Shown piece after piece: positions 15,449-56,862 of a stretch of 64,000 nucleotides of DNA; the first letter of the stretch is position 1, and each line of letters starts with the position of its first letter. The notes beneath the pieces were generated by a model. The model was not told the origin of the DNA and did no database searches. It saw only the letters and a list, made by a program, of their open reading frames with translations. The DNA comes from Eledone cirrhosa (lineage: Eukaryota). A program made the position numbers and the translations under genes. The stretch is taken from the NCBI GenBank assembly GCA_964016885.1, contig OZ024745.1, forward strand, positions 2,418,001-2,482,000, written 5' to 3'.

Positions 15449-18194
15449 GTGGAAAGAAACTGCCTATTTAAAATTACTACTTGGGACAACATCAATGAAC
15501 TAATATTCATGCAAGATGAGGCCTCATCTCATTTTGTACGCACTGTTCGTGAACGGCTTGCTGTCAGATTTCCAGAACGTTGGCTGTGTTGTCGTGATTC
15601 ACATAAATGGCCAGCAACAAGCCATGATATAGCGCCATGTTTGACCAGCAAGAAGCCATGATATAACGCCATCTTCGGCCAGCAACAAGCCATGCTATAA
15701 CGCCATGTTTGGCCAGCAAGAAGCCATGATATAACGCCATGTTTGGCCAGCAAGAAGCCATGCTATAACGCCATGTTTGGCCAGCAAGAAGCCATGATAT
15801 AACGCCATGTTTGGCCAGCAAGAAGCCATGATATAACGCCATGTTTGGCCAGCAAGAAGCCATGCTATAACGCCATGTTTGGCCAGCAAGAAGCCATGAT
15901 ATAACGCCATGTTTGGCCAGCAAGAAGCCATGATATAACGCCATGTTTGGCCAGCAAGGAGCCATGATATAGCGCCATGTTTGGCCAGCAAGAAGCCATG
16001 CTATAACGCCATGTTTGGCCAGCAAGAAGCCATGATATAACGCCATGTTTGACCAGCAAGAAGCCATGATATAACGCCATGTTCGGCCAGCAACAAGCCA
16101 TGCTATAACGCCATGTTTGGCCAGCAAGAAGCCATGATATAACGCCATGTTTGACCAGCAAGAAGCCATGATATAACGCCATGTTTGGCCAGCAAGAAGC
16201 CATGCTATAACGCCATCTTCGGCCAGCAACAAGCCATGCTATAACGCCATGTTTGGCCAGCAAGAAGCTATGATATAACGCCATGTTTGGCCAGCAAGGA
16301 GCCATGATATAACGCCATGTTTGACCAGCAAGAAGCCATGATATAACGCCATGTTTGGCCAGCAAGGAGCCATGCTATAACGCCATGTTTGGCCAGCAAG
16401 AAGCTATGATATAACGCCATGTTTGGCCAGCAACAAACCATGATATAACGCCATGTTTGGCCAGCAAGAAGCTATGATATAACGCCATGTTTGGCCAGCA
16501 AGGAGCCATGATATAACGCCATGTTTGGCCAGCAAGAAGCTATGATATAACGCCATGTTTGGCCAGCAAGGAGCCATGATATAACGCCATGTTTGGCCAG
16601 CAAGAAGCTATGATATAACGCCATGTTTGGCCAGCAAGGAGCCATGATATAACGCCATGTTTGGCCAGCAACAAGCTATGATATAACGCCCTGTTCGGCC
16701 AGCAACAAGCCATGATATAACGCCATCTTCGGCCAGCTACAAGCCATGCTATAACGCCATGTTTGGCCAGCAAGAAGCCATGATATAACGCCATGTTTGG
16801 CCAGCAAGAAGCCATGATATAACGCCATGTTTGGCCAGCAAGAAGCCATGATATAACGCCATGTTTGGCCAGCAAGAAGCCATGCTATAACGCCATGTTT
16901 GGCCAGCAACAAGCTATGATGTAACGCCCTGTTCGGCCATCAAGAAGCCATGATATAACGCCATGTTTGGCCAGCAAGAAGCCATGATATAACGCCATGT
17001 TTGGCCAGCAACAAGCCATGCTATAACGCCATGTTTGGCCAGCAACAAGCTATGATGTAACGCCCTGTTCGGCCAGCAAGAAGCCATGCTATAACGCCAT
17101 GTTTGGCCAGCAAGAAGCCATGATATAACGCCATGTTTGGCCAGCAACAAGCCATGCTATAACGCCATGTTTGGCCAGCAACAAGCTATGATGTAACGCC
17201 CTGTTCGGCCAGCAAGAAGCCATGATATAACGCCATCTTCGGCCAGCAACAAGCCATGATATAACGCCATGTTTGGCCAGCAACAAGCCATGCTATAACG
17301 CCATGTTTGGCCAGCAACAAGCTATGATGTAACGCCCTGTTCGGCCAGCAAGTAGCCATGATATAACGCCATGTTTGGCCAGCAAGAAGCCATGATATAA
17401 CGCCATGTTTGGCCAGCAACAAGCCATGATATAACGCCATGTTTGGCCAGCAACAAGCTATGATGTAACGCCCTGTTCGGACACCAAGAAGCCATGCTAT
17501 AACGCCATGTTTGGCCAGCAAGAAGCCATGATATAACGCCATGTTTGGCCAGCAAGAAGCCATGCTATAACGCCATGTTTGGCCAGCAACAAGCCATGAT
17601 ATAACGCCATGTTTGGCCAGCAAGAAGCCATGATATAACGCCATGTTTGGCCAGCAACAAGCCATGATATAACGCCATGTTTGACCAGCAACAAGCCATG
17701 CTATAACGCCATGTTTCACCAGCAACAAGCCATGCTATAACGCCATGTTTGGCCAGCAACAAGCCATGATATAACGCCATGTTTGGCCAGCAACAAGCCA
17801 TGATATAACGCCATGTTTGGCCAGCAACAAGCCATGATATAACGCCATGTTTGACCAGCAACAAGCCATGATATAACGCCCTGTTTTCTTGTGGGGTGGG
17901 TAAAGAAAGAAGTTTATAGCTTAAAACCAAAACCTCTGACTCAATTGGAGGAACACATTCGTCATGTCCTGACCAACATGACACCTAAGTTCCCGTTAAT
18001 CAATGATATACCCAGATAATTACAAACACTGGTGGACAACACTGGTGCCTACCTCCTAAAATTGTAACTTTCTACTATTCTTCTATCATTATATTGTCCA
18101 AAATAAAACGCATTTTTATGAAAATTGACCAATAATTAATAAAATTATTAACAAGTTAACAATTTTAAGTAGGGAGTTTCTTTCCACCAACCCC

Positions 18195-21846: not shown

Positions 21847-21906
<60 letters not shown>

Positions 21907-22164
21907 TATAACGAAGGAAGTGTGGTAAGGAATCAGGTGGACCATAGCGCACCAGAGTACTCAATACTTAGGGTAGTGGAGCGGGTAATAGGAAAATGTT
22001 CAAGACCCCGACGGAGTATATATGGAGTAAATCTTGTTCTTTTTACGATGTTGCATCTAGTAGTTAGATAACTCAGGGAGACATTCAGTTAAATTATACC
22101 AGACTCTTAAAAAAGCAAAACAAAGACATGGATAGTGTAGTCCTAGGTACACAGTGATAAAAAT

Positions 22165-22500
22165 GATTTGTCTAAACATTGCGTCTTTTCTGTGTGTAGA
22201 TTCTATTTTTATTTCTATGTTCTCTAATTTACCCTTATGTTCTATTTTTGCATGTTGGTGGAGTACAGATGATTCTTTACTATCTTGAAGCTCTCGCCAG
22301 TGTTCATTTATCCGTTCCCCTATACTACGAGCTGTCTCACCTATGTACACTATATGTTTATCTCTGCATTGTCCTTCAGTACATCTTATGCTATACACTA
22401 CATTTCTAGTTTTACAGTTAATATGGGGGCTTAATTTACAGATTATACATTTCTTATCTATACAGGGAGGTCTTTGAAAATGGTATGTATTGCTAATAAG
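22165..22500 (-). pseudogene. PLE Cys-rich linker and GIY-YIG endonuclease (disrupted after KDAMFRQI)
   Basis: PPCIDKKCIICK...CKTRNVVYSIRCTEGQC...VYIGETARSIGERINEH. Confidence 0.85.
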
Positions 22501-22776
22501 TGTTTTTATGGAGGTACCTGGTCTTTCTACTATCTTAATATTGAGTTTATGTTTATCTAGGGCCCTTCTAAATTTTTAAGCTAATTCACCTCTAGGGGTT
22601 GTATCGATGAACATTACACTCTGGTATTTATTGCTATCATACCATGAGTTTATTCTATTAACCTTATTCCTATTTCTTTCTATTCTATACCAAAACTTGC
22701 TCCTATACAAGGGGCAGGTCCCATTTGTATCATTATTTACCATTTTTTCCCATTTCGTTCTGGCTCCTCTATATAC

Positions 22777-23442
22777 TCAGATTTTATCTCTCTGATTGTA
22801 ACCAGAGAACTGCATACGGTGGATGAAGTGTTGTATGTGTCTCTCTAGTTCTTTGGGGTTGCACATGCAGGACACGTTTCTCATCACCCGTACCAAATCC
22901 GCAATCAGTATGTTGATTTTGGTATGGTCCGAAACAGCTGAGTTTCGGTGGATCAGATATTTGGAAGTCATGGGTTTGGCATAATGGGAATGGAGGATTT
23001 GTTTTTTGTTATTAATGGTATCTAACCAGAGCTCTGTGTCTAGTACAGATAATCGATGGTCGGGGTGTTTGCTTGGGTAGTCTATAGTAACTCTAATACT
23101 CTGGTGGATGGAGTTAGCTATTTGCTGGATGCTTTCCATGGTGTTTTTCTCTAATTCCTGACTGTTCTCTAGTGGGGGTGTCTTAACTACGATGTTTATA
23201 TCATCAACGTAGCAGGAGTACATTATCAGGGTTAAGAGGTTGCTGTCTTCTAATTGTTCTTTAAGTTTAAGTTTAAGTCTATTTCCCCACCATACCATGA
23301 ATAGGTTAGCTATGTCACCTGCAATGCTAACACCAATGGCTGCTCCCTCCTCTTGGGTATATGTTTTTCCATTAAATTTGAACATATGTTCCTTAAGGGT
23401 TAATTTTATACTGGCCCCCACCGGATGTGCAATCATTTTCAT
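22777..23442 (-). pseudogene. PLE reverse transcriptase fragment
   Basis: FKFNGKTYTQEEGAAIG..IANLFM, YVDDI, LSVLD, HYAKP, SGY motifs. Confidence 0.85.
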
Positions 23443-23452
23443 TTCAGAAACG

Positions 23453-23518
<66 letters not shown>

Positions 23519-26760: not shown

Positions 26761-27411
26761 TGTGTGGTTAATTTAGTCGGTGTTTAACCATACTATATGA
26801 GGAACATATAATAGGTTTATATACACAAAACATATCGCTGCCAAAGAATAATATATTTTTCGTAACGAAAAAAATGAATTTTTCTCTATTTTCCTCTGTG
26901 ACTATATCAGAGAATTACCAGTATGTTTGAGAATGTCAGACAGCGCTATTTCAAGATTTGTTAAACTCTTATCAGTGACACTCTTGCTGGCATGAAATAG
27001 GCCAGAGTGTATATAGAACTTTATGTGATGATCATTTTCTGGCCATACTCATGTGTATATAGCAAATGGAAAACATCGACTGGAAATGTTCATATATATA
27101 TATGAAAGGGTTCAGGACCCCGACGGCTGAGCTCCAGCCGTTTCGACAGCTAGATCCGAACTCATATATATATGTGTAAAAGGTAAACAGAAATAACAAT
27201 ACAATATATATATATATTTATTTATTAAAATAACAGATTAAAGTTTAAGCAAACAATCGCTGCTTTCACCCTTGAAGGGATTTTCTGAAACTAAAAAAAA
27301 ATCAATCTGTGAACGCAGAAGTAAATATTTCGAAAAACGTTGCAACCGTTATCCTTATCGAGCTCTCTTTGGATTTAAGTCTTCACATTTATTATTATTA
27401 CTATATATATG

Positions 27412-27718
27412 TCTATATATATAAAACTGAAGATGTCTGTCTGTGTGTGTGTGAGTTTGAATCCCTAAAACTTGAGAACCACCCAACCGACTGTTTTCAA
27501 ACTTTACACATATAATACTTATGCTTCAGGGAGTGTTTTGAGAAGAAACAAATTCAAATTTTCAATGCCCTAGGGACCGCATTAGGCGATTTAGCGATCT
27601 CTCTCTATAATTCTTAGTCTTTCTCTTTTTAGATAGATACATATAACGTCACGCCCTTATAATATCTGTCTGTATGTCTGCTGTCTGCATTACGTCACTT
27701 CCCTGAGGATGTCTCTCT

Positions 27719-27795
<77 letters not shown>

Positions 27796-28411
27796 TGTGT
27801 GTGTGTGTGTGTGTGTGTGAATCCCTAAAACTCGAGAAGTACCCAACCGACTTTTTTCAATCTTTACATGTGTATTACTTATGTTTCAGGAAGTGTTATG
27901 CACATAAAGAAATTCAACTTTTTGATCCCCTAGGGCCCGCATTAGATGAAAAACTGCGTTTTTTTCAGGTTTTTAGGGGTTTTTTGAGGCGTTACGTCAG
28001 ATCGATTTCCTTGAAATTGTAACTATGTATTAGTCAGTCTCTTCCTCATACTGTGAGCAAATAAAATCCAACTTTTTTTGGCCTAGTGCCCGCATTAAGT
28101 GAAAAACTTCCTTTTTTTTTCAGCTTTTTAGGGCTTTTCTGAGGCGTTACGTCTAGCCGATTTTCCCGAAATTTCAAGACATATGCACATAAAAAAAATT
28201 CATTTTCTTGATCCCCTGAGGCCCGCATTAGGTGAAAACCTGCATTTTTCCTGCTTCATCGAGGAAAATCTTAAAGATTATCCAGCCATCAGAGTTTTCG
28301 GTTTATTTTCTTTACATATTGTCCAGGCATGCAGTTTTTCCACGATTAGGTCTGTAGGCGGCCGGCGTTCCAAAATACCTTATCCCGTGCAACGCCCGGT
28401 ACCACTGCTAG
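27412..28411 (+). mobile_element. Non-autonomous Helitron
   Basis: 5' TCTATATATATAAAA; 3' subterminal hairpin CCGTGC-AAC-GCCCGG then CTAG|T; internal subrepeats; second copy at 61062. Confidence 0.75.
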
Positions 28412-28487
28412 TATATATATATATATATATATATGTAAGTATGTATGTATACGTACATACATATATGTATACAGACGTACAGTAGCA

Positions 28488-28525
<38 letters not shown>

Positions 28526-28695
28526 TATACATATATGCATACAGGTACACATACATATATGCACGCATCAGTTTAGCCGACGTTTATTATAACGCCTGCT
28601 TTGTTCGTTTGTTTGTCAACAAATCGAACAGCCTGAATTTATGCCATACGGTGTTAAGGCAACCACGTCACCTTTTTGTTCAACACTGACACAGG

Positions 28696-28740
28696 AACGA
28701 TGTACTAGTTTCAAGCTTGTTAGCTATCATCAGCACCGTT
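28696..28740 (-). ncRNA. Type I hammerhead ribozyme (canonical core)
   Basis: AACGGTG-CTGATGA-T-AGCT aaca AGCT-T-GAAAC-TA-GT-A-CATCGTT. Confidence 0.85.
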
Positions 28741-29184
28741 TACCCATCTGCCAGATAGTTGAACGTTCGAAAGTATATACTTTCCTTATGAAAATTAACG
28801 GCTGAGCAGCCTAATTTGCATATTGAGTGAGTTAAATCGGTCAGGCATACCGAAAACGATAAGTTGAATAAAATGAAAACGAAATTTCATTTCTCACTCT
28901 TAGTATGGCACTTACTTAAATGTAAGTATGTATGTATACGTACATACATATATGTATACAGACGTACAGTAGCATGCATATATATATATATATATATATA
29001 TGTGTATACATATATATACACATATGCATACAGGTACACATACATATATGCACGCATCAGTTTAGCCGACGTTTATTATAACGCCTGCTTTGTTCGTTTG
29101 TTTGTCAACAAATCGAACAGCCTGAATTTATGCCATACGGTGTTAAGGCAACCACGTCACCTTTTTGTTCAACACTGACACAGG

Positions 29185-29229
29185 AACGATGTACTAGTTT
29201 CAAGCTTGTTAGCTATCATCAGCACCGTT
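29185..29229 (-). ncRNA. Type I hammerhead ribozyme (identical tandem copy)
   Basis: Same sequence as 28696-28740, 489 bp away. Confidence 0.85.
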
Positions 29230-29433
29230 TACCCATCTGCCAGATAGTTGAACGTTCGAAAGTATATACTTTCCTTATGAAAATTAACGGCTGAGCAGCC
29301 TAATTTGCATAATGAGTGAGTTAAATCGGTCAGGCATACCGAAAACGATAAGTTGAAAAAAATGAAAACGAAATTTCATTTCTCACTCTTAGTATGGCAC
29401 TTACTTAAATGTAAGTATGTATGTATACGGGTA

Positions 29434-29478
29434 AACGGTGCTGATGATAGGTAACAAGCTTGAAACTAGTACATCGTT
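29434..29478 (+). ncRNA. Type I hammerhead ribozyme (inverted copy, one stem II mismatch)
   Basis: AACGGTG-CTGATGA-TAGGTAACAAGCTT-GAAAC-TA-GT-A-CATCGTT. Confidence 0.75.
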
Positions 29479-29648
29479 CCTGTTTCAGTGTTGAACAAAA
29501 AGGTGACGTGGTTGCCTTAACACCGTATGGCATAAATTCAGGCTGTTCGATTTGTTGACAAACAAACGAACAAAGCAGGCGTTATAATAAACGTCGGCTA
29601 AACTGATGCGTGCATATATGTATGTGTACCTGTATGCATATGTGTATA

Positions 29649-29690
<42 letters not shown>

Positions 29691-29691
<1 letters not shown>

Positions 29692-29823
29692 CGAAGGAAA
29701 TGTGGTAAGGAACCAGGTGGACCATAACGCACCAAAGTACTCAATACTTGAGGTAGTAGAGTGGGTAATAGGAACCAGTAAGACCCCGACAGCTGAGCTC
29801 AAGCCGTTTCGACGGCTAATTCT
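29691..29823 (-). mobile_element. PLE pLTR-like fragment with the 3' half of an HHR, nested in the (TA)n of the retrozyme
   Basis: Minus strand GAAACGGC-TTGAGCTCA-GCTGT-C-GGGGTC; relatives at ~21911, ~27110 and ~36098. Confidence 0.6.
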
Positions 29824-29972
29824 ATATATATATGCATGCTACTGTACGTCTGTATACATATATGTATGTACGTATACATACATACTTACATTTAAGTAAG
29901 TGCCATACTAAGAGTGAGAAATGAAATTTCGTTTTCATTTTTTTCAACTTATATATATATATATATATATAT

Positions 29973-30040
<68 letters not shown>

Positions 30041-32887: not shown

Positions 32888-33880
32888 TTAAGCTTGTCTA
32901 AAGTTCTCAAATTTGGTCGCCGATTTATGCCGACAGAAAATAGTTCTTTCAATTTTACTGTTAAGAAGCATTTTGTTGTAATTTAAAATTTGGAAAAGTT
33001 CCATATTACAGAGATCACAGTGGGACATACCAATTTGATAGGCCTTTGCTTTTGATAGCTTCGTCCAGCTGATTTTATATTCCATGTTTGCATCCTTGAG
33101 TTGCCAGATTTTATTGGCGAAAGTCGTTGTATTTAAGAGATTCCTGTTAATCATAGAGTGTCTATGTACGTACTACCTTTTCTTAAACTCTCCAGCTGTG
33201 GAACCAATGTAATGCCATGCTAAGCTACCTGAATTTATAGTACATAGGTATACTGTATTTGTCTCTAGGCATCTATTTTGTAAAGGGCATTTGTCAGGTA
33301 GATGGCAGTTACATTTAGATGCTTTTCTATGTGCCGGTTCTTCGATATGGTTTTGTAGGTTGCTATGTATGGGCTGAGAATTGGGTTTGTTGATGTATTG
33401 TGGTGATGTGCTCTGACGTGTGTTTGGTTGAGATGATGTTTTGTATTTGGTATTATGGTACTTATTTGCGGGCTACTTGTATTATAAATTCTTTTATAGT
33501 TAATTTTATGTATGTGCGATTCTATGTTGTTGACAGTGGCGTATGATAGCTTGATAGTTTTTCTATTAAAGATTTTATGATATTTATGAATTTTAGAGAA
33601 GTGTTTGTCAACCAATTTGAAGAAAGTGTAAGGTAGCTTAGTTTTTATAGAGGAGTTAAATATTGGATTGAACCATAAGTAGTTTCTATTTCTGCATCTT
33701 CTATAGTTATTATTGGTCTTTATATTAGTATTCTGTTCATTTAATTTACGCTGCCAATTTTTATGTTTAGTCCTAGATTTGTTGCTTCTATAGGTGTGGA
33801 TAGTGCTATTAATATTTAGTGTGTTGTTATTTTTTGTATCTGGTATGTATTTGAGTCTCTCTTTATGGCCTGCCTTTTCC
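32888..33880 (-). pseudogene. PLE RT-thumb and GIY-YIG endonuclease, frameshifted (Naiad-like motifs)
   Basis: WFNP, LVDKHF..HKYHKIFNRKTIKLSY, CNCHLPDKCPLQNRCL..VY...YIGST..FKKR*, IWQLK, CDLCNME, LLNSK.E...CRH; clade assignment from memory. Confidence 0.85.
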
Positions 33881-34005
33881 TTTCTTTCTTTCCTGTATCT
33901 ATCTCCCTTTCTTTCTTTTATTTCTCTCTCTATCTTTATTATTAATATTATTATTGATGATGTAATTTGAATTTGTAAATTTGCCGATTATATATATTTT
34001 TTGTA

Positions 34006-43634: not shown

Positions 43635-45313
43635 TGTCAATGTTAAACCAGTCTACCACAGCCAGTCCTTCTCAGGTTACTGATACCTGCTACATGTCAA
43701 TGTTAAACCAGTCTACCACAGCCAGTCCTTCTCAGGTTACTGATACCTGCTACATGTCAATGTTAAACCAGTCTACAACAGCCTGTCCTTCTCAGGTTAC
43801 TGATACCTGCTACATGTCAATGTTAAACCAGTCTACCACAGCCAGTCCTTCTCAGGTTACTGATACCTGCTACATGTCAATGTTAAACCAGTCTACAACA
43901 GCCTGTCCTTCTCAGGTTACTGATACCTGCTACATGTCAATGTTAAACCAGTCTACCACAGCCTGTCCTTCTCAGGTTACTGATAGCTGCTACATGTCAA
44001 TGTTAAACCAGTCTACCCCAGCCTGTCCTTCTCAGGTTACTGATACCTGCTACATGTCAATGTTAAACCAGTCTACCACAGCCAGTCCTTCTCAGGTTAC
44101 TGATACCTGCTACATGTCAATGTTAAACCAGTCTACCCCAGCCTGTCCTTCTCAGGTTACTGATAGCTGCTACATGTCAATGTTAAACCAGTCTACCACA
44201 GCCAGTCCTTCTCAGGTTACTGATAGCTGCTACATGTCAATGTTAAACCAGTCTACCACAGCCAGTCCTTCTCAGGCTACTGATAGCTGCTACATGTCAA
44301 TGTTAAACCAGTCTAACACAGCCAGTCCTTCTCAGGTTACTGATAACTGCTACATGTCAATGATAAACCAGTCTACCCCAGCCTGTCCTTCTCAGGTTAC
44401 TGATACCTGCTACATGTCAATGTTAAACCAGTCTACCACAGCCAGTCCTTCTCAGGTTACTGATACCTGCTACATGTCAATGTTAAACCAGTCTACAACA
44501 GCCTGTCCTTCTCAGGTTACTGATACCTGCTACATGTCAATGTTAAACCAGTCTACCACAGCCTGTCCTTCTCAGGTTACTGATAGCTGCTACATGTCAA
44601 TGTTAAACCAGTCTACCCCAGCCTGTCCTTCTCAGGTTACTGATACCTGCTACATGTCAATGTTAAACCAGTCTACCACAGCCAGTCCTTCTCAGGTTAC
44701 TGATACCTGCTACATGTCAATGTTAAACCAGTCTACCCCAGCCTGTCCTTCTCAGGTTACTGATAGCTGCTACATGTCAATGTTAAACCAGTCTACCACA
44801 GCCAGTCCTTCTCAGGTTACTGATAGCTGCTACATGTCAATGTTAAACCAGTCTACCACAGCCAGTCCTTCTCAGGCTACTGATAGCTGCTACATGTCAA
44901 TGTTAAACCAGTCTAACACAGCCAGTCCTTCTCAGGTTACTGATACCTGCTACATGTCAATGATAAACCAGTCTACCCCAGCCTGTCCTTCTCAGGTTAC
45001 TGATACCTGCTACATGTCAATGTTAAACCAGTCTACCACAGCCAGTCCTTCTCAGGTTACTGATACCTGCTACATGTCAATGTTAAACCAGTCTACCACA
45101 GCCAGTCCTTCTCAGGTTACTGATAGCTGCTACATGTCAATGATAAACCAGTCTACCCCAGCCTGTCCTTCTCAGGTTACTGATAGCTGCTACATGTCAA
45201 TGATAAACCAGTCTACCCCAGCCAGTCCTTCTCAGGTTATTGATACCTGCTACATATCAATGTTAAACCAGTCTACCCCAGCCTGTCCTTCTCAGGTTAC
45301 TGATACCTGCTAC
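43635..45313 (+). repeat. 60-bp tandem repeat, 28 copies, with a 600-bp higher-order duplication
   Basis: Exact 60-bp period; rare variants recur 600 bp apart. Confidence 0.97.
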
Positions 45314-45411
45314 GTGTGCGGGCAACCGAAATAAATGTAATGAAACTGTTCAAATGAGAATCGGTCCTACATTGCAGACTCGATTGTTCGAGTGCTAACC
45401 ATCACACTAGA

Positions 45412-48400
45412 TTACCCACAACAATACCCACAACAAATACCCACAACAAATACCCACAACAAATACCCACGGCAATACGCACAACAATACCCACAACAAA
45501 TAGCCACAACAATACCCACAACAATACCGACAACAACACCCACAACAATACCTACAACATTTACCCACAACAATACCCACAACAAATACCCACAACAATA
45601 CCCACAACAATACCCACAATAAATACCCACAACAATACCCACAACAATACCCACAACAATACCCACAACAAATACCCACAACAATACCCACAACAATACC
45701 CACAATAAATACCCACAACAATACCCACAACAATACCCACAACAATACCCACAACAATACCCATAACAATACCCACAACAACACCCAAAACAATACCCAC
45801 AACAAATACCCACAACAATACCCACAACAATGCCCACAATAAATACCCACAACAATACCCACAACAAAACCCACAACAAATACCACAACAATACCCACAA
45901 CAATACCCACAACAATACCCACAACAATACCCACAACAATACCAGCAAAAATACCCACAACAATACCCACAACAATACCCACAACAATACCCACATCAAA
46001 ACCCACAACAATACCCACAACAATACACATAAATACCAATAACAAATACCCACACACACAAATACCCACGATAATACCCACAACAATACCAACAACCATA
46101 CCCACAACAAATACCCATATTAATAGCCACAACAATACCCACACATACCCACAACAAATACACACACATTCCCACAACAATACCCGAAATAAATACCCAC
46201 AACAAATACCCACACTCACGTACCCACAACAATACCCACAACAATGCCCACAACAAATACCCACAACAATACCGACAACAATACCCACAACAATACCCAC
46301 AACAATACCCTCAACAAATACCCACAACAATACCCACACATACCCACAACAATACCCACAACAAATACCCACAACAATACCCACAACAATACCCACAACT
46401 AATACCCACAACAATACCCACAACAATACCCACAACAAATACCCACAATTAATACCCACAACAAATACCCACAACAATACCCACAACAATACCCACAACA
46501 AATACCCACAACAAATACCCACAAAAATACCCACAACAATACCCACAACATTACCAACAACAAATACCCACAACAATACCCACAACAATACCCACAACAA
46601 ATACCCACAACAATACCCACAACAATGCCCACAACAATACCACAACAATACCCACAACAAATACCCACAACAAATACCCATAGCAAATACCCACAACAAT
46701 ACCCCCACACACACATAACCACAACAATACCCACATAATACCCACAACAAATACCCAAACATACCACCAAAAATACCCACAACAAATACCCACACATACC
46801 CACAACAATACCATAACAATACCCACAACAAATACCCACAACAATACCCACAATAATACCCACAACAAATACCCACAACAATGCCCATGACAATTCCTAC
46901 AACAATACCCACAACAATACCCATAACAAATACCCACACATACCCACAACAATACCCACAACAATACCCACAACAATAACCACAACAAATACCCACCACA
47001 AATACCCACAACAATACCCTAAACAAATACCCGCAATAAATACCCACAATAAATATCCACAACAATACCCACAACAAATCCAGACACATACCCACAACAA
47101 TACCCACAACAAATACCCACAACAATACCCACAACAAATACCCACAACAATACCCACGACAAATACCCACAACAATACCCACAACAATACCCACAACAAA
47201 TACCCACAACAAATACCCACAAAAATACCCACAACAACACCCACAACAATACCCACAACAAATACCCACAACATTACCCACAACAAATACCCACAGCAAA
47301 TACCCACAACAATACCCACAACAAATACCCACAACAATACCCACAACAATACCCACAACAAATACCCACAACAAATACCCAAAACAATACCCACAACAAT
47401 ACCCACAACAATACCCACAACAAATACCCACACAATACCCACAATTAATAGCCACAACAATACCCACAACAATACCCACAACAAATACCCACAACAATAC
47501 CCACATCGATACCCAAACCGATACCCAAAATTAATAGCCACAACAACACCCACAACAATACCCACAACAAATAGCCACACATTCCCACAACAATACCCAC
47601 AACAAATACCCACAACAAATACCCAAAACAATACCCACAACAATACCCACAACAATACCCACAACAAATACCCACACAATACCCACAACAAATACTCACA
47701 ACAAATACCCACAACAAATACCCACAACAAATACCCACAACAATACCCACAACAATACCCACAACAAATACCCACACTAATACCCACAACAATACCCACA
47801 ACAAATACCCACAACAAATACCTACAAAAATACCCACAACAATACCCACAACAATACCCACAACAATATCCACAACAATACCCACAACAATACCCATAAC
47901 AATGCCCACAACAAATACCCACAATAATACCCACAACAAATAGCCACACATACCCACATTAATACCCACATCAATACCCACAACAAATTCCCACAACAAT
48001 ACCCTCAAAAATACCCACAACATTACCCACAATTAATAGCCACAATAATACCCACAACAATACCCACCACTAATACCCACAACAAATACCCACAACAAAT
48101 ACCCACACATACCCACAACAATAGCCACAACAATACCCACAACAATACCCACAAAAATACCCACAACAATACCCACGACAAATACCCACAACAACACCCA
48201 CAACAATACCCACAACAAATACCCACAACGTTACCCACAACAAATACCCACAGCAAATACCCACAACAATACCCACAATTAATACCCACAACAATACCCA
48301 CAACAATACCCACAACAAATACTCACAACAATACCCACAACAAATACCCACAACAATACCCATAACAATACCCACAATTAATAGCCACAACAATACCCAC

Positions 48401-51400
48401 AACAATACCCACAGCAAATACCCACAACAATACCCACATCAATACCCACACCGATACCCACAATTAATAGCCACAACAATGCCCACAACAATACCCACAA
48501 CAATACCCACAACATTACCCACAACAATACCCACAACATTACCCACAATTAATAGCCACACATACCCACAACAATACCCACACAAATACCCACAACAATT
48601 ACCCACTATAAATACCCACACACAACAATAGCCACAACAATACCCACAACAATACCCACAACAATATCCACAACAATACCCACAACAATACCCATAACAA
48701 TACCCACAAATAATACCCACAACAATACCCACAACAAATAGCCACACATACCCACATTAATACCCACAACTAATACCCACAACAAATACCCTCAACAATA
48801 CCCACAACAATACACACAATAAATACCCACAACATAGACCCACACATACCCACAAGAATACCCACACAAATACCCACAACAATTACCCACTATAAATACC
48901 CACACACAACAATAGCCACAACAATACCCACAACAATACCCACAACAATACCCATAACAATACCCACAACAATACCCTGAGCCATACCCACAACAATACC
49001 CACACCAAATACCCACAACAAATAGCCACAACAAATACCCACAACAAATACCCACAACTAATACCCACAACAAATACCCTCAACAATACCCACAACAATA
49101 CACACAATAAATACCCACAACATAGACCCACACATACCCACAAGAATACCATAACAATACCCACAACAAATACCCACAACAATACCCATGACAATTCCCA
49201 CAACAATACCCACAACAATACCCACACCTAATACCCACACATACCCACAACAATACCCACAACAAATACCCAGAACAATACCCACAACAATACCCTGAGC
49301 CATACCCACAACAATAACCACAACAAATACCCACAACAAATACCCACAACAAATACCCACAACAAATAGACACACACACACATACCCACAACAATACCCA
49401 CAACAAATACCCACAACAAATACCCACACATACCCACAACAATACCCACAACAAATACCCACACATACCCACAACAATACCATAACAATACCCACAACAA
49501 ATACCCACAACAATACCCACAATAATACCCACAACAAATACCCACAACAATACCCATGACAATTCCCACAACAATACCCACAACAAACCCACACCAAAAA
49601 CCCACACATACCCACAATAATACCCACAACAATACCCACAACAAATAGCCACAACAATACCCACAACAATACCCACAACAATACCCACAACAAATACCCA
49701 CCAGAAATACCCACAACAAATAGCCACAACAATACCCACAACAATGCCCACAACAAATACCCACAACAATACCCACAACAATACCCACACCAATACCCAC
49801 AATTAATAGCCACAACAATACCCACAACAATACCCACAACAAATACCACAACAATACCCACACCATTACCCACAACATTACCCTCATAAATACCCACAAC
49901 ATTACCCACAATTAATAGCCACAATAATACCCACAACAATACCCACCACAAATACCCACAACAAATACCCACAACAAATGCCCACACATACCCACAACAA
50001 TACCCACAACAATACCTTGAGCCATACCCACAAAAATACCCACAACAAATACTCGCAGTAAATACCCACCACAAATACCCAAACAATACCCACAACAAAT
50101 ACCCACAACAAATACCCACAACAATACCCACAACAATAGCCACAACAAATACCCACAACAATACCCTCAACAATACCCACAACAAATACCCACAACAATA
50201 CCCACAATAAATACCCACAACAATACCCACAACAATACCTACAACAAATACCCACAACAATACCCACAACAAATACCCACACAATACCCACAATTAATAG
50301 CCACAACATTACCCATAACAATACCCACAACAAATACCCACAACAAATACCCACAACAAATACCCACAACAAATAGCCACAACAATACCCATAACAATAC
50401 CCACACATAATAGCCACAAAAATACCCACAACAATACCCACAACAAATACCCACAACAATACCCACATCAATACCCACACCGATACCCAAAATTAATAGC
50501 CACAACAATGCCCACAACAATACCCACAACAAATACCCACAACAATACCCACAACATTACCCACAACAATACCCACAACATTACCCACAATTAATAGCCA
50601 CACCTACCCACAACAATACCCACACAAATACCCACAACAATTACCCACAACAAATACCCACACACAACAATAGCCACAACAATACCCACAACAATACCCA
50701 CAACAATATCCACAACAATACCCACAACAATACCCATAACAATACCCACAAATAATACCCACAACAATACCCACAACAAATAGCCACACATACCCACATT
50801 AATACCCACAACAATACCCACAACAAATACCCAAACAATACCCACAACAATACCCATAACAATACCCACAACAATACCCACAACAATACCCTGAGCCATA
50901 CCCACAACAATACCCACACCAAATACCCACAACAAATAGCCACAACAAATACCCACAACAAATACCCACAACTAATACCCACACAAATACCCACAACAAT
51001 TACCCACAACAAATACCCACACACAACAATAGCCACAACAATACCCACAATAATACCCACAACAATATCCACAACAATACCCACAACAATACCCATAACA
51101 ATACCCACAAATAAGACCCACAACAATACCCACAACAAATAGCCACACATACCCACATTAATACCCACAACAATACCCACAACAAATACCCAAACAATAC
51201 CCACAACAATACCCATAACAATACCCACAGTAATACCCACAACAATACCCTGAGCCATACCCACAACAATACCCACAACAATACCCACAACAATACCCAC
51301 AACAATACCCTGAGCCATACCCATGACAATAACCACAACAAATACCCACAAAAATACCCACAACAAATACCCACAACAAATAGACACACACACACATACC

Positions 51401-54400
51401 CACAACAAAACCCACAATAATACCCACAACAAATACTCACAACAATACCCACAACAAATACCCACAACAAATACCCACACATACCCACAACAATACCCAC
51501 AACAAATACCCACACATACCCACAACAATACCATAACAATACCCAAAACAAATGCCCACAACAATACCCACAATAATACCCACAACAAATACCCACAACA
51601 ATACCCATGATAATTCCCACAACAATACCCACAACAAACCCACACCAAAAACCCACACATACCCACAATAATACCCACAACAATACCCACAACAAATAGC
51701 CACAACAAATACTCGCAGTAAATACCCACCACAAATACCCAAACAATACCCACAACAAATACCCACAACAAATACCCACAACAATACCCACAACAATACC
51801 CACAACAAATACCCACAACAATACCCTCAACAATACCCACAACAAATACCCACAACAATACCCACAATAAATACCCGCAATAAATATCCACAACAATACC
51901 CACAACAAATCCAGACACATACCCACAACAATACTCACAATTATACCCACAATAAATACCCACAACAATGCCCACAACAATACCCACAACAATACCCACA
52001 ACAAATCCAGACACATACCCACAAAAATACCCTGAGCCATACCCACAACAATAACCACAACAAATACCCACAACAAATACCCACAACAATACCCACAACA
52101 ATACCCACAACAATACTCACAACAATACCCACAACAAATACCCACAACAAATACCCACACATACCCACAACAATACCCACAAAAATACCCACAACAATAC
52201 CCACAACAATACCTTGAGCCATACCCACAACAATGCCAACAACAAATACCCACAACAAATACCCACACACACATAGCCACAACAATACCCACAACAATAC
52301 CCACAACAAATACTCACAACAATACCCACAACAAATACCCACAACAAATACCCACACATACCCACAACAATACCCACAAATAAACCCACACTTACCCCAA
52401 CAATACCAACAACAAATACCCACACATACACACAAGAATACCATAACAATACCCACAACAAATACCCACAACAATACCCATGACAATTCCCACAACAATA
52501 CCCACAACAATACCCACACCAAATACCCACACATACCCACAACAATACCCACAACAATACCCACAACAATACCCACAACAATAGCCACAACAAATAGCCA
52601 CACATACCCACAACAATACCCACAATAAATACACACAATAAATATCCACAACAATACTCACAACAAATCCAGACACATACCCACAACAATGCCCACAACA
52701 ATACCCACAACAAATACCCACAACAATACCCACAACAAATAACCACAACAATACCCACGAAAATACCCGCAACAATATCCACAACAATACCCACAACAAA
52801 TACCCACAACAAATACCCACAACAATACCTACAACAAATACCCACAACAATACCCACCACAAATACCCACCACAATCCCCACAACAATACCCACAACAAA
52901 GACCGACAACAATACCCACAACAACACCCACAACAATACCCACAACAAATACCCACAACAATACCCACAACAAATACCCACAATAATACCCACAACAACA
53001 CCCACAACAATACCCACAACAAATACCCACAACAAATACCCACAACAATACCCACAACAACACCCACAACAATACCCACAACAAATACCCACAACAATAC
53101 CCACAACAAATACCCACAATAATACCCACAACAATACCCACAACAAATACCCACAACAATACCCACAACAAATACCCACAATAATACCCACAATTAATAG
53201 CCACAACAATACCCACAACAATACCCACAACAAATACCCACAACAATACCCACAACAATACCCACAACAAATACCCACAACAAATAGCCACAACCATACC
53301 CACAACAAATACCCACAATAATACCCACAATTAATAGCCACAACATTACCCATAACAATACCCACAACAAATACCCACAACAATACCCACAATTAATAGC
53401 CACAACAATACCCACAACAATACCCACAACAAAAACCCACAACAATACCCACAACAATACCCACACCAAATACCCACACATACCCACAACAATACCCACA
53501 ACAAATACCCACAACAAATACCCACAACAATACCTACAACAAATACCCACAACAATACCCACCACAAATACCCACAACAATCCCCACAACAATACCCACA
53601 ACAAAGACCGACAACAATACCCACAACAACACCCACAACAATACCCACAACAAATACCCACAACAATACCCACAACAAATACCCACAATAATACCCACAA
53701 CAACACCCACAACAATACCCACAACAAATACCCACAACAAATACCCACAACAATACCCACAACAACACCCACAACAATACCCACAACAAATACCCACAAC
53801 AATACCCACAACAAATACCCACAATAATACCCACAACAATACCCACAACAAATACCCACAACAATACCCACAACAAATACCCACAATAATACCCACAATT
53901 AATAGCCACAACAATACCCACAACAATACCCACAACAAATACCCACAACAATACCCACAACAATACCCACAACAAATACCCACAACAAATAGCCACAACC
54001 ATACCCACAACAAATACCCACAATAATACCCACAATTAATAGCCACAACATTACCCATAACAATACCCATAACAAATACCCACAACAATACCCACAATTA
54101 ATAGCCACAACAATACCCACAACAATACCCACAACAAAAACCCACAACAATACCCACAACAATACCCACACCAAATACCCACACATACCCACAACAATAC
54201 CCACAACAATACCCACAACAATACCCACAACAATAGCCACAACAAATAGTCACACATACCCACAACAATACCCACAATAAATACACACAATAAATATCCA
54301 CAACAATACTCACAACAAATCCAGACACATACCCACAACAATGCCCACAACAATACCCACAACAAATACCCACAACAATACCCACAACAAATAACCACAA

Positions 54401-56862
54401 CAATACCCACGAAAATACCCGCAACAATATCCACAACAATACCCACAACAAATACCCACAACAAATACCCACAACAATACCTACAACAAATACCCACAAC
54501 AATACCCACCACAAATACCCACAACAATCCCCACAACAATCCCCACAACAAAGACCGACAACAATACCCACAACAACACCCACAACAATACCCACAACAA
54601 ATACCCACAACAATACCCACAACAAATACCCACAATAATACCCACAACAACACCCACAACAATACCCACAACAAATACCCACAACAAATACCCACAACAA
54701 TACCCACAACAACACCCACAACAATACCCACAACAAATACCCACAACAATACCCACAACAAATACCCACAATAATACCCACAACAATACCCACAACAAAT
54801 ACCCACAACAATACCCACAACAAATACCCACAATAATACCCACAATTAATAGCCACAACAATACCCACAACAATACCCACAACAAATACCCACAACAATA
54901 CCCACAACAATACCCACAACAAATACCCACAACAAATAGCCACAACCATACCCACAACAAATACCCACAATAATACCCACAATTAATAGCCACAACATTA
55001 CCCATAACAATACCCACAACAAAAACCCACAACAATACCCACAATTAATAGCCACAACAATACCCACAACAATACCCACAACAAAAACCCACAACAATAC
55101 CCACAACAATACCCACAACAATACCCACACCAATACCCACAATTAATAGCCACCACAATACCCACAACAATACCCACAACAAATACCCCCAATAATACCC
55201 ACAACATTACCCACAACAATACCCACAACATTACCCACAATTAATAGCCACACATACCCACAACAATACCCACAACAAATACCCACAACAAATACCCACA
55301 GCAAATACTCACAGTAAATACCCACCACAAATACCCACAACAATACCTACAACAAATACCCACAACAAATACCCACAACAATACCCACAACAATACCCAC
55401 AACAAATACCCACAACCATACCCAAAACAATACCGACAACAAATACCCACAACAATACCCACAACAAATACCTACAACAAATACCCATAACAAATACATA
55501 CAACAATACCCACAACAATACCCACATAATACCCACAACAATATCCACAACAATACCCACAACAAATACCCACAACAATACCCACAACAATACCCACAAC
55601 AATACCCACAACAAATACCCACAACAATACCCACAACAATACCCACAATAATACCCACAACAAATCCAGACACATACCCTCAACAAAACCCACAACAAAT
55701 ACCCACAACAATACCCACAACAATACCCACAACAATACCCATAACAATACCCACAACAAATACCCACAACAATATCCACAACAAATAGCCACACATACCC
55801 ACAACAATACCCACAACAATACCCACAACAAATACCCACAACAAATACCCACAAAAAATACCCACAATAATACCCACAATAATACCCACAATTAATACCC
55901 ACAACAAATACCCACAACAAATACCCACATTAATACCCACAACAATACCCACAACAAATACCCATAACAATACCCACATTAATACCCACACAATACCCAC
56001 AACAATACCCACAACAAATACCCACAACAAATACCCACACATACCCACAATAATACCCGCAACAAATACCCACAAAAAATACCTACAACAAATACCCACA
56101 ACCATACCCACAACAATACCCACAACAATACCCATAACAATACCCACAATAATACCCTCAACAAATACCCACAACAAATACCCACAACAATACCCACAAT
56201 ACCCACAACAAATACCCGCAATAAATACCCACACATACCCACAACAATACCCACAATAAATACCCACAACAAATACCCACAAAACACCCACAACAAATAC
56301 CCGCAACCATGCCCACAACAATACCCACAACCCATACCCACAACAATACCCACAACAATACCCACAAATACCCACAACAAATACCCACAACAATACCCAC
56401 AATACCCACATAAATACCCGCAATAAATACCCACACATACCCACAACAATACCCACAATAAATACCCACAACAAATACCCACAACAAACACCCACAACAA
56501 ATACCCGCAACCATGCCCACAACAAATACCCACAACCATACCCACAACAATACCCACAACAATACCCATAACAATACCCACAACCAATACCCACAACAAT
56601 ACCCACAACAAATACCCACAACATATACCCACATATACCCACAGATACCCACAACAATACCCACAACGAATACCCACACATACCCACAACAATACCCACA
56701 ACGAATACCCACACATACCCACAACAATACCCACAACAAATACCCACACATACCCCCAACAATACCCACAACAAATACCCACATATACCCACAACATACC
56801 CACAATAATACCCACAATAAATACCCACAACAAATACCCACAACAAATACCCACAACATACA
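45412..56862 (+). repeat. ~11.4-kb satellite of 12/13-bp units (CCACAACAATAC / CCACAACAAATAC)
   Basis: Direct repetition; + strand almost G-free. Confidence 0.97.

What the first reader, a model, noticed from the sequence alone, without database searches (positions are those of the whole stretch)
28432..29951. Best retrozyme candidate: near-identical 489-bp tandem monomers, each with an intact hammerhead
Seen: two head-to-tail units with identical canonical HHRs exactly 489 nt apart (minus strand; 7-bp stem I, palindromic ACTAGT stem III, GUA site), plus an inverted third copy. There is no credible ORF. The monomer carries its own internal (TA)n, into which another pLTR fragment has inserted. 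Established: non-LTR retrozymes are tandem HHR repeats that give abundant circRNAs in several animals. Inference: a young locus able to excise a ~489-nt RNA by dimeric cleavage. By carrying (TA)n it spreads new target sites, which could help explain the TA-saturated landscape.
Basis: partly seen in the sequence, partly recalled or inferred. Interest (0 to 1): 0.85.

Follow-up and report, generated by a model that had tools for sequence, protein, structure and literature searches.

The report
Two-armed hammerhead retrozyme with Penelope footprint
This is one of thousands of copies of a small protein-free repeat that carries a predicted self-cutting RNA and sits in TA runs as two back-to-back arms with two fixed ends, a footprint suggesting it is likely copied by Penelope-type retrotransposon enzymes, possibly from an RNA circle.

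Summary
Two tandem 489-bp units carry identical type I hammerheads, but stem II opens with U·U, not G-C, and the inverted third hammerhead has a stem II mutation. The locus is one insertion of a genome-wide non-coding family (10,424 exact hammerhead matches). The inverted copy is the second arm of the same event. Insertions lie in (TA)n as head-to-head arms whose 3' ends fall at two fixed sites about 60 nt apart; 22 of 22 securely classed two-armed loci in a position-ordered sample have one of each. That is the published Penelope-like (PLE) inverted/tail signature, and a Hydra-type PLE end in this genome shows it too (18 of 19). Arms run through up to 15 cleavage sites and 5' ends do not gather at the cut, so a cut linear monomer is not the template; a circle is likely, an uncut multimer is not excluded. 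No parent ORF was found. Cleavage and circular RNA are untested. The internal TA is in the family, but adds only about 0.02% of the genome. Verdict: a non-LTR retrozyme with an unusually clear PLE insertion footprint.

The parts
28412..28433 (.). Left (TA)n target run
   Evidence: sequence
28434..29429 (-). Arm 1: about two tandem 489-nt units; 3' end at short site A (about monomer position 270), 5' break at monomer position 252
29185..29229 (-). Type I hammerhead 1 (stem I 7 bp, U·U plus 4-bp stem II, palindromic 2-bp stem III); predicted cut after 29192
28696..28740 (-). Type I hammerhead 2, identical; predicted cut after 28703
28703..29191 (-). Predicted excisable 489-nt monomer; GC 35%, MFE -169.9 kcal/mol, z -9.2
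28921..29050 (-). Internal TA-rich long hairpin zone of the monomer (pure TA core about 28978-29018); the equivalent zone of the other unit is about 28434-28560
29429..29952 (+). Arm 2: inverted partial copy from monomer position 447; 3' end at long site B (about position 331), about 60 nt past site A (the tail)
29434..29478 (+). Hammerhead 3 with C>G at 29451 breaking a stem II pair
29691..29822 (-). Later insertion into the internal TA: 3'-terminal 132 bp of a Hydra-type PLE family (family B)
29950..30040 (.). Right (TA)n target run

Best explanation
The locus is one insertion of a non-coding hammerhead repeat (a non-LTR retrozyme) made of two head-to-head arms in a (TA)n run, likely written by a borrowed Penelope-like RT-endonuclease that would prime one strand at each of two fixed internal sites on a probably circular RNA. 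Shown: the two arms, the two fixed 3' ends (A about 270, B about 331), TA targets, scattered 5' breaks, multi-unit arms, one haplotype per locus, and a hammerhead kept across subfamilies. Inferred steps: a tandem locus is transcribed; neighbouring hammerheads cut as dimers and release a 450-570-nt monomer; a host ligase closes it; a PLE enzyme (Hydra or Neptune clade, not identified) nicks both strands of (TA)n and starts one cDNA at A and the other at B; each runs round the circle for a variable length; the two truncated ends are joined. Later DNA-level duplication and conversion modify some arrays. Odds: PLE mobilisation about 0.9; circular rather than uncut multimer template about 0.6.
For: Two fixed ends: 95 of 100 classed arm ends are followed by (TA)4 within 24 nt. 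In the position-ordered sample, 31 head-to-head pairs; 23 had both ends classed and all were A+B, 22 of 22 after dropping L072, whose A call is a false fuzzy match; over all loci 32 of 33, exception L035. The Hydra-type family B shows long+short in 18 of 19 two-armed copies, 1 unclassed, and its end is continuous with an RT/endonuclease ORF in L070. PMC8557442 describes the inverted 5'-truncated copy, a tail at one end, and (TA)n targeting by Hydra; PMC11167929 shows a purified PLE cutting and extending both strands, starting at two internal RNA sites that define the tail. Template: of 89 arms, 49 span one cleavage site and 27 span two or more, up to 15; 1 of 84 5' breaks is within 6 nt of the cut against 2.1 expected. 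24 of 32 multi-segment stretches have only private variants. The two arms differ by a median 0.3% against 4.7% between loci, over 30 pairs. Hammerhead: core intact in 25 of 30 matches picked by a non-hammerhead motif; subfamilies change the free position 7 and swap a stem I pair G·U to U·G or A-U.
Against: No autonomous partner was found: none of 20 tail-selected loci, nor the other loci inspected, has an ORF continuous with the element. No RNA evidence is in hand. PMC11167929 found the hammerhead dispensable for insertion in vitro and uncut RNA the main substrate. In bioRxiv 10.64898/2026.07.22.740005, 8 of 9 Xenopus dimers did not cleave. 8 of 32 stretches show variants shared by subsets of units (2 of the 8 hold two separate insertions); L169 has a variant on adjacent units and L168 on the mirror-image inner units only, so DNA-level duplication and arm-to-arm conversion occur and can mimic a shared template. 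27 arms in the sample are unpaired. The sample was chosen by a hammerhead match, which inflates arms spanning the cut. The stem I swap is one event inherited by five rows, in a hand-picked alignment. The tail is about 60 nt against the 30-40 nt published.
Confidence: 0.6

Rival explanations
1. Same PLE two-site priming, but the template is an uncut linear multimer read through a donor array; the hammerhead acts weakly or at another stage.
For: PMC11167929: uncut RNA is the dominant substrate in vitro. U·U and a 2-bp stem III predict slow cleavage. L096 repeats a variant-plus-length motif three times across its arms. Very uniform donor arrays exist (L043: 13 segments, 0 variants).
Against: 5' truncation would shorten arrays each generation, yet 11-15-unit arms persist. 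Arms aligned from their 3' ends do not share unit variants in L031 or L069 (my reading). The hammerhead fold is kept across subfamilies about 80% identical.
Confidence: 0.25
2. Short PLE-type insertions seed a minisatellite that then expands locally by unequal crossing-over, as proposed in bioRxiv 10.64898/2026.07.22.740005.
For: Shared variants in L038, L069, L096 and L169 show that local duplication happens.
Against: 24 of 32 stretches have only private variants, including L045 (8 segments, 9 singles) and L091 (7 segments, 15 singles); where long young arrays share a variant it is on non-adjacent units (L040, L050). Both arms are multi-unit at many loci and keep exact A/B ends. A second 310-bp family shows the same head-to-head multi-unit layout.
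Confidence: 0.1
3. The units are only terminal repeats (pLTR debris) of 5'-truncated autonomous PLE copies.
For: Inverted arm, tail and hammerhead are pLTR features; most PLE copies are truncated (PMC8557442).
Against: Upstream of each unit lies another unit, through up to 15 rounds. Old and young subfamilies are all non-coding.
Confidence: 0.04
4. Assembly artefact.
For: Palindromes and tandems are hard to assemble; L035 is palindromic including its flanks.
Against: Private variants in each copy, asymmetric A/B ends, a nested insert in one arm only, and thousands of such loci.
Confidence: 0.01

Closest known systems
Metazoan non-LTR retrozymes (Cervera and de la Peña 2020, PMC7229834), closest axolotl HHR_Amex2/Rtz_353
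   Same: Small non-coding low-GC tandem units, one type I hammerhead each, highly self-paired; HHR_Amex2 also has U·U at the base of helix II and a 2-bp helix III, and cleaves better as a dimer.
   Different: Unit about 450-570 bp (150-450 typical there); carries its own TA hairpin; inserts in (TA)n as head-to-head arms with two fixed ends and no clear direct duplication, which the sections I read do not describe. Expression is untested here.
Penelope-like elements, Hydra and Neptune clades (PMC8557442; PMC11167929)
   Same: Inverted 5'-truncated arm, tail on one end only, (TA)n target, hammerhead upstream of the priming sites; both clades have ORF fragments ending in TA in this genome.
   Different: No RT or GIY-YIG ORF; tail about 60 nt; no sequence link to any autonomous 3' end seen.
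Non-autonomous Chlamys elements such as MRC1 (PMC8557442)
   Same: Non-coding PLE passengers with multicopy head-to-tail insertions.
   Different: Algal, from a clade that mostly lacks canonical hammerheads, and generally similar to their autonomous partner at the 3' end.
Retrozymes as non-autonomous PLE derivatives (bioRxiv 10.64898/2026.07.22.740005)
   Same: Same conclusion on PLE dependence, reached from co-occurrence and pLTR similarity in Xenopus.
   Different: That work proposes local amplification for the arrays and, in the parts read, does not use insertion ends; here the ends point to arrays mostly born multi-unit.

Membership tests
Non-LTR retrozyme | Type I hammerhead in at least two consecutive tandem units | tested here: met
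Non-LTR retrozyme | Small monomer (150-450 bp in PMC7229834; 51-972 bp in the 2026 preprint) | tested here: met
   454-573 bp over 111 units: inside the wider range, above the narrower
Non-LTR retrozyme | No protein coding | tested here: met
   61 aa sense, 115 aa antisense stop-free maximum
Non-LTR retrozyme | GC below 50% and highly self-paired | tested here: met
   GC 0.35; z -9.2, -5.3 without the TA zone
Non-LTR retrozyme | Dispersed multicopy, mobile | tested here: met
   10,424 hammerhead and 15,763 non-hammerhead motif matches
Non-LTR retrozyme | No PBS or polypurine tract | not tested
   not searched
Non-LTR retrozyme | Target-site duplication longer than 4 bp when present | tested here: inconclusive
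   flanks are TA runs; no non-TA direct duplication seen in 33 pairs, inverted duplications in a few
Non-LTR retrozyme | Self-cleavage and circular RNA in vivo | not testable with these tools
   needs transcription and RNA assays
Canonical type I hammerhead | CUGANGA / GAAA / UH core with three helices and palindromic helix III | tested here: met
Canonical type I hammerhead | G10.1-C11.1 pair | tested here: not met
   U·U in the family, C·A in an older subfamily
Autonomous PLE | RT plus GIY-YIG ORF between pLTRs | tested here: not met
PLE-mobilised element | Inverted 5'-truncated arm and tail on one end | tested here: met
   22 of 22 secure pairs are A+B
PLE-mobilised element | 3'-end similarity to an autonomous PLE | tested here: inconclusive
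   none seen by eye among the endonuclease-bearing 3' ends in about 750 kb of fetched sequence; genome not searched exhaustively

The most novel reading that the evidence does not exclude
Each insertion is a frozen record of a Penelope-type enzyme dimer running rolling-circle reverse transcription on one circular ribozyme RNA from two fixed start sites, one per target strand. That would be sequence-level proof that animal retrozyme circles are the retrotransposition template, would give the rule one short end plus one long end per event, and would offer a 489-nt protein-free substrate for PLE biochemistry.
Probability: 0.45. Interest if true: 0.78.

Novelty: new variant of a known kind. Interest (0 to 1): 0.55.

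Why it matters
PMC7761336 states that animal retrozymes show no conserved motif revealing which retroelement moves them, and PMC8557442 lists the origin of PLE tandem/inverted structures as open. This family shows the PLE footprint on a protein-free retrozyme across thousands of loci, with a near-strict one-short-one-long rule that matches the two start sites seen in vitro (PMC11167929). It makes two questions directly testable: whether circles are the template, and whether tandem arrays are born at insertion. The element class itself, and the idea of PLE mobilisation, are already published.

Tried and rejected
Expression: no RNA holder listed among six runs; laying four of them gave contigs only; neither bears on expression. 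Partner search: hammerhead variants with non-T at 10.1 (30 of 56 fetched; part of the output was cut) were point mutants and older non-coding subfamilies; 20 tail-selected loci had no continuous ORF; Neptune- and Hydra-type 3' ends in the flanks did not resemble the unit. Mixed-family junctions (L053, L060, L076, L042, L093, L136) first suggested co-insertion with Hydra RNA; a targeted search gave 8 matches, only L130 (= L053) and L136 direct, end pairing was mixed, and L177 looks nested, so this is only a lead. Private alleles on both arms (8 of 30 pairs) were downgraded after L168 showed mirror-type sharing. The TA-landscape idea was rejected on amount. Rfam miRNA hits are low-complexity TA matches below gathering scores. 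Earlier scan notes: none found. Literature searches that found no description of this family or of two-armed retrozyme insertions; the library lacks most subscription papers, I opened no supplements, and Repbase/Dfam were not available, so a prior annotation is possible.

Full report
OBSERVATION. Tandem Repeats Finder gives period 489, 2.0 copies, 98% matches at 28433-29429. Two identical type I hammerheads lie on the minus strand at 29185-29229 and 28696-28740; the predicted cuts after 29192 and 28703 bound a 489-nt unit. Stem I has 7 bp with one G·U, stem III is the palindrome ACTAGT, and the triplet is GUA. Stem II is 4 bp but opens with U·U instead of G10.1-C11.1. The inverted copy at 29429-29952 has a third hammerhead with a stem II change at 29451 and a 132-bp insert in its TA run. 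Rfam has no gathering-level hit in the window; Hammerhead_HH9 scores 18.5 bits, E 0.24, on the two minus-strand motifs. The longest stop-free frames are 61 and 115 aa. The unit is 35% GC and folds at z -9.2, -5.3 without the TA zone. In a circular fold, stem II pairs at 0.91-1.0 and stem I at only 0.18-0.80.

FAMILY. The window is G000:C5:2418001-2482000 in a 3.0-Gb genome. My impression that it is a cephalopod is recalled from the repeat landscape and was not tested. A 35-letter hammerhead pattern matches 10,424 times, control 0, and all 100 listed matches have U·U. A non-hammerhead motif matches 15,763 times and a tail motif 13,273 times. Older subfamilies are about 80% identical and equally non-coding. 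Full units are 454-573 bp, and 110 of 111 carry a pure TA run, mean 35 bp.

INSERTION ARCHITECTURE. I fetched 13 loci chosen by best identity and a position-ordered sample covering the clusters among the first 100 hammerhead matches on C1 (plus L046). Numbering from the cut, arms end at site A (about 270) or site B (about 331); 100 of 114 arm ends were classed and 95 of those are followed by (TA)4 within 24 nt. The position-ordered sample has 31 head-to-head pairs and 27 unpaired arms (17 B, 7 A, 3 other). Both ends were classed in 23 pairs, all A+B; L072's A call is a false fuzzy match, leaving 22 of 22. Over all loci it is 32 of 33 (L072 included), the exception L035 being a palindrome that includes its flanks. 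The window locus fits: left arm A, right arm B. PMC8557442 (passages read) describes PLE insertions with an inverted 5'-truncated copy, a 30-40-bp tail at one end, and (TA)n targets for Hydra and Naiad. PMC11167929 (parts 1-2 of 4 read) shows a purified PLE protein cutting and extending both strands of AT-rich DNA and starting at two internal RNA sites that define the tail. As an internal control, the family that inserted into arm 2 (family B) shows long+short ends in 18 of 19 two-armed copies, 1 unclassed. Its 132-bp piece is 86% identical to the 3' end of an RT/endonuclease element in L070 with the Hydra motifs CxCX5C, CxxC and CxH and no TA break after the ORF (motifs as).

TEMPLATE. A monomer cut at both hammerheads and primed at A or B could give at most 270 or 331 nt, ending at the cut. 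Of 89 arms in the position-ordered sample, 13 span no cut site, 49 one and 27 two or more, up to 15; selection by hammerhead match inflates these numbers. Of 84 5' breaks, 1 lies within 6 nt of the cut against 2.1 expected; positions inside the TA zone or subfamily indels are imprecise. So the template was a circle or an uncut multimer. In 24 of 32 stretches with four or more segments all variants are private; 8 show shared ones, 2 of them because two insertions were fetched together. The two arms of a locus differ by a median 0.3% against 4.7% between loci in 30 pairs, and 8 pairs share alleles seen nowhere else in the sample. Against over-reading this: L168 shares a rare variant only between mirror-image inner units and L169 between adjacent units, and L038, L069 and L096 show block patterns, so conversion and duplication at DNA level do occur.

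RIBOZYME UNDER CONSTRAINT. Among 30 matches picked by a non-hammerhead motif (several from the same arrays), 25 have an intact core. Subfamily changes fall on the free position 7, on loop II, on the mismatch at 10.1-11.1, and on one stem I pair that appears as G·U, U·G and A-U (95.5% of cells paired). The alignment was hand-picked and the double change is one inherited event, so this is suggestive only. PMC7229834 (parts 2-4 of 6 read) reports an axolotl retrozyme hammerhead with the same U·U that cleaves 22% in an hour as a monomer and much better as a dimer; PMC4209133 (passages) explains dimer cleavage through a palindromic helix III and already suggests circular templates for PLE tandems. 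In bioRxiv 10.64898/2026.07.22.740005 (parts 1-3 of 5 read; supplements closed) only 1 of 9 dimers cleaved.

PARTNER. Not found. Neptune-type and Hydra-type endonuclease fragments ending in TA are common in the flanks, but none shares the unit's 3' end by inspection. Twenty tail-selected loci show no continuous ORF. A few arms are joined directly to another PLE family's end, for example L060 to a Hydra endonuclease fragment; nested insertion with deletion explains these as well.

TA LANDSCAPE. About 16,000 units carrying 35 bp each give roughly 0.57 Mb, 0.019% of the genome, while TA runs of 10 bp or more fill 6.2% of this window. The internal TA is reused as a target here and in L047, but the family follows the TA landscape more than it makes it.

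COMPARISON AND VERDICT. It meets the sequence criteria for a non-LTR retrozyme, fails the ORF criterion for an autonomous PLE, and works like a PLE passenger. PLE mobilisation of retrozymes is already proposed (PMC7229834; PMC7761336, passages; the 2026 preprint). Eight searches found no description of this family or of two-armed, two-ended retrozyme insertions; passages of PMC13282606, PMC11722881 and PMC8490949 added nothing on this, and PMC13282606 has no occurrence of 'hammerhead' or 'retrozyme' in its main text. No supplements were opened, and repeat libraries could hold the family under another name. The locus itself is an ordinary young copy; the value lies in the family-wide footprint. 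New variant of a known kind, interest 0.55.

Noticed in passing
L036:1-1400; L050:5700-8000; genome-wide: A second retrozyme family with a 310-bp unit, a hammerhead with the same U·U and a similar loop II, 4,498 exact matches, long head-to-head arrays in TA.
   Followed up: partly
L043, L034, L050: About 25-70 nt of the flank beyond the TA run reappears inverted on the other side of the insertion; in L043 and L050 it is followed by a further TA run. Possibly fold-back at the self-complementary target.
   Followed up: partly
window 27411-28411: Helitron-like non-coding element (TC start, hairpin plus CTAG end; label recalled, not tested) directly left of the TA target.
   Followed up: no
window 22057-23517 (-): Broken Neptune-type PLE ORF fragment (weak RVT_1 and GIY-YIG hits), abutting a family B 3' end at about 21906-22040.
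   Followed up: partly
window 32888-33987 (-): Broken Hydra-type PLE fragment with a CxCX5C linker.
   Followed up: partly
window 7658, 24238, 31504, 36725, 36791, 37688, 41819: Further type I hammerhead-like motifs of at least three other families.
   Followed up: no
L060:3700-5120: Chimeric locus: retrozyme short-end arm joined to a Hydra endonuclease fragment, with that Hydra family's own 3' end as the opposite arm.
   Followed up: partly
monomer position 469 (window 29451; L038; L096): The same stem II base is changed in several separate copies, three times in L096.
   Followed up: no
window 15608-17886, 43635-45317, 45413-56858: Long satellites of 34, 60 and 12 bp period.
   Followed up: no
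runs X4 and X6: Contigs labelled as organisms B and D hold low-depth pieces of the unit, including older-subfamily variants; meaning not examined.
   Followed up: no
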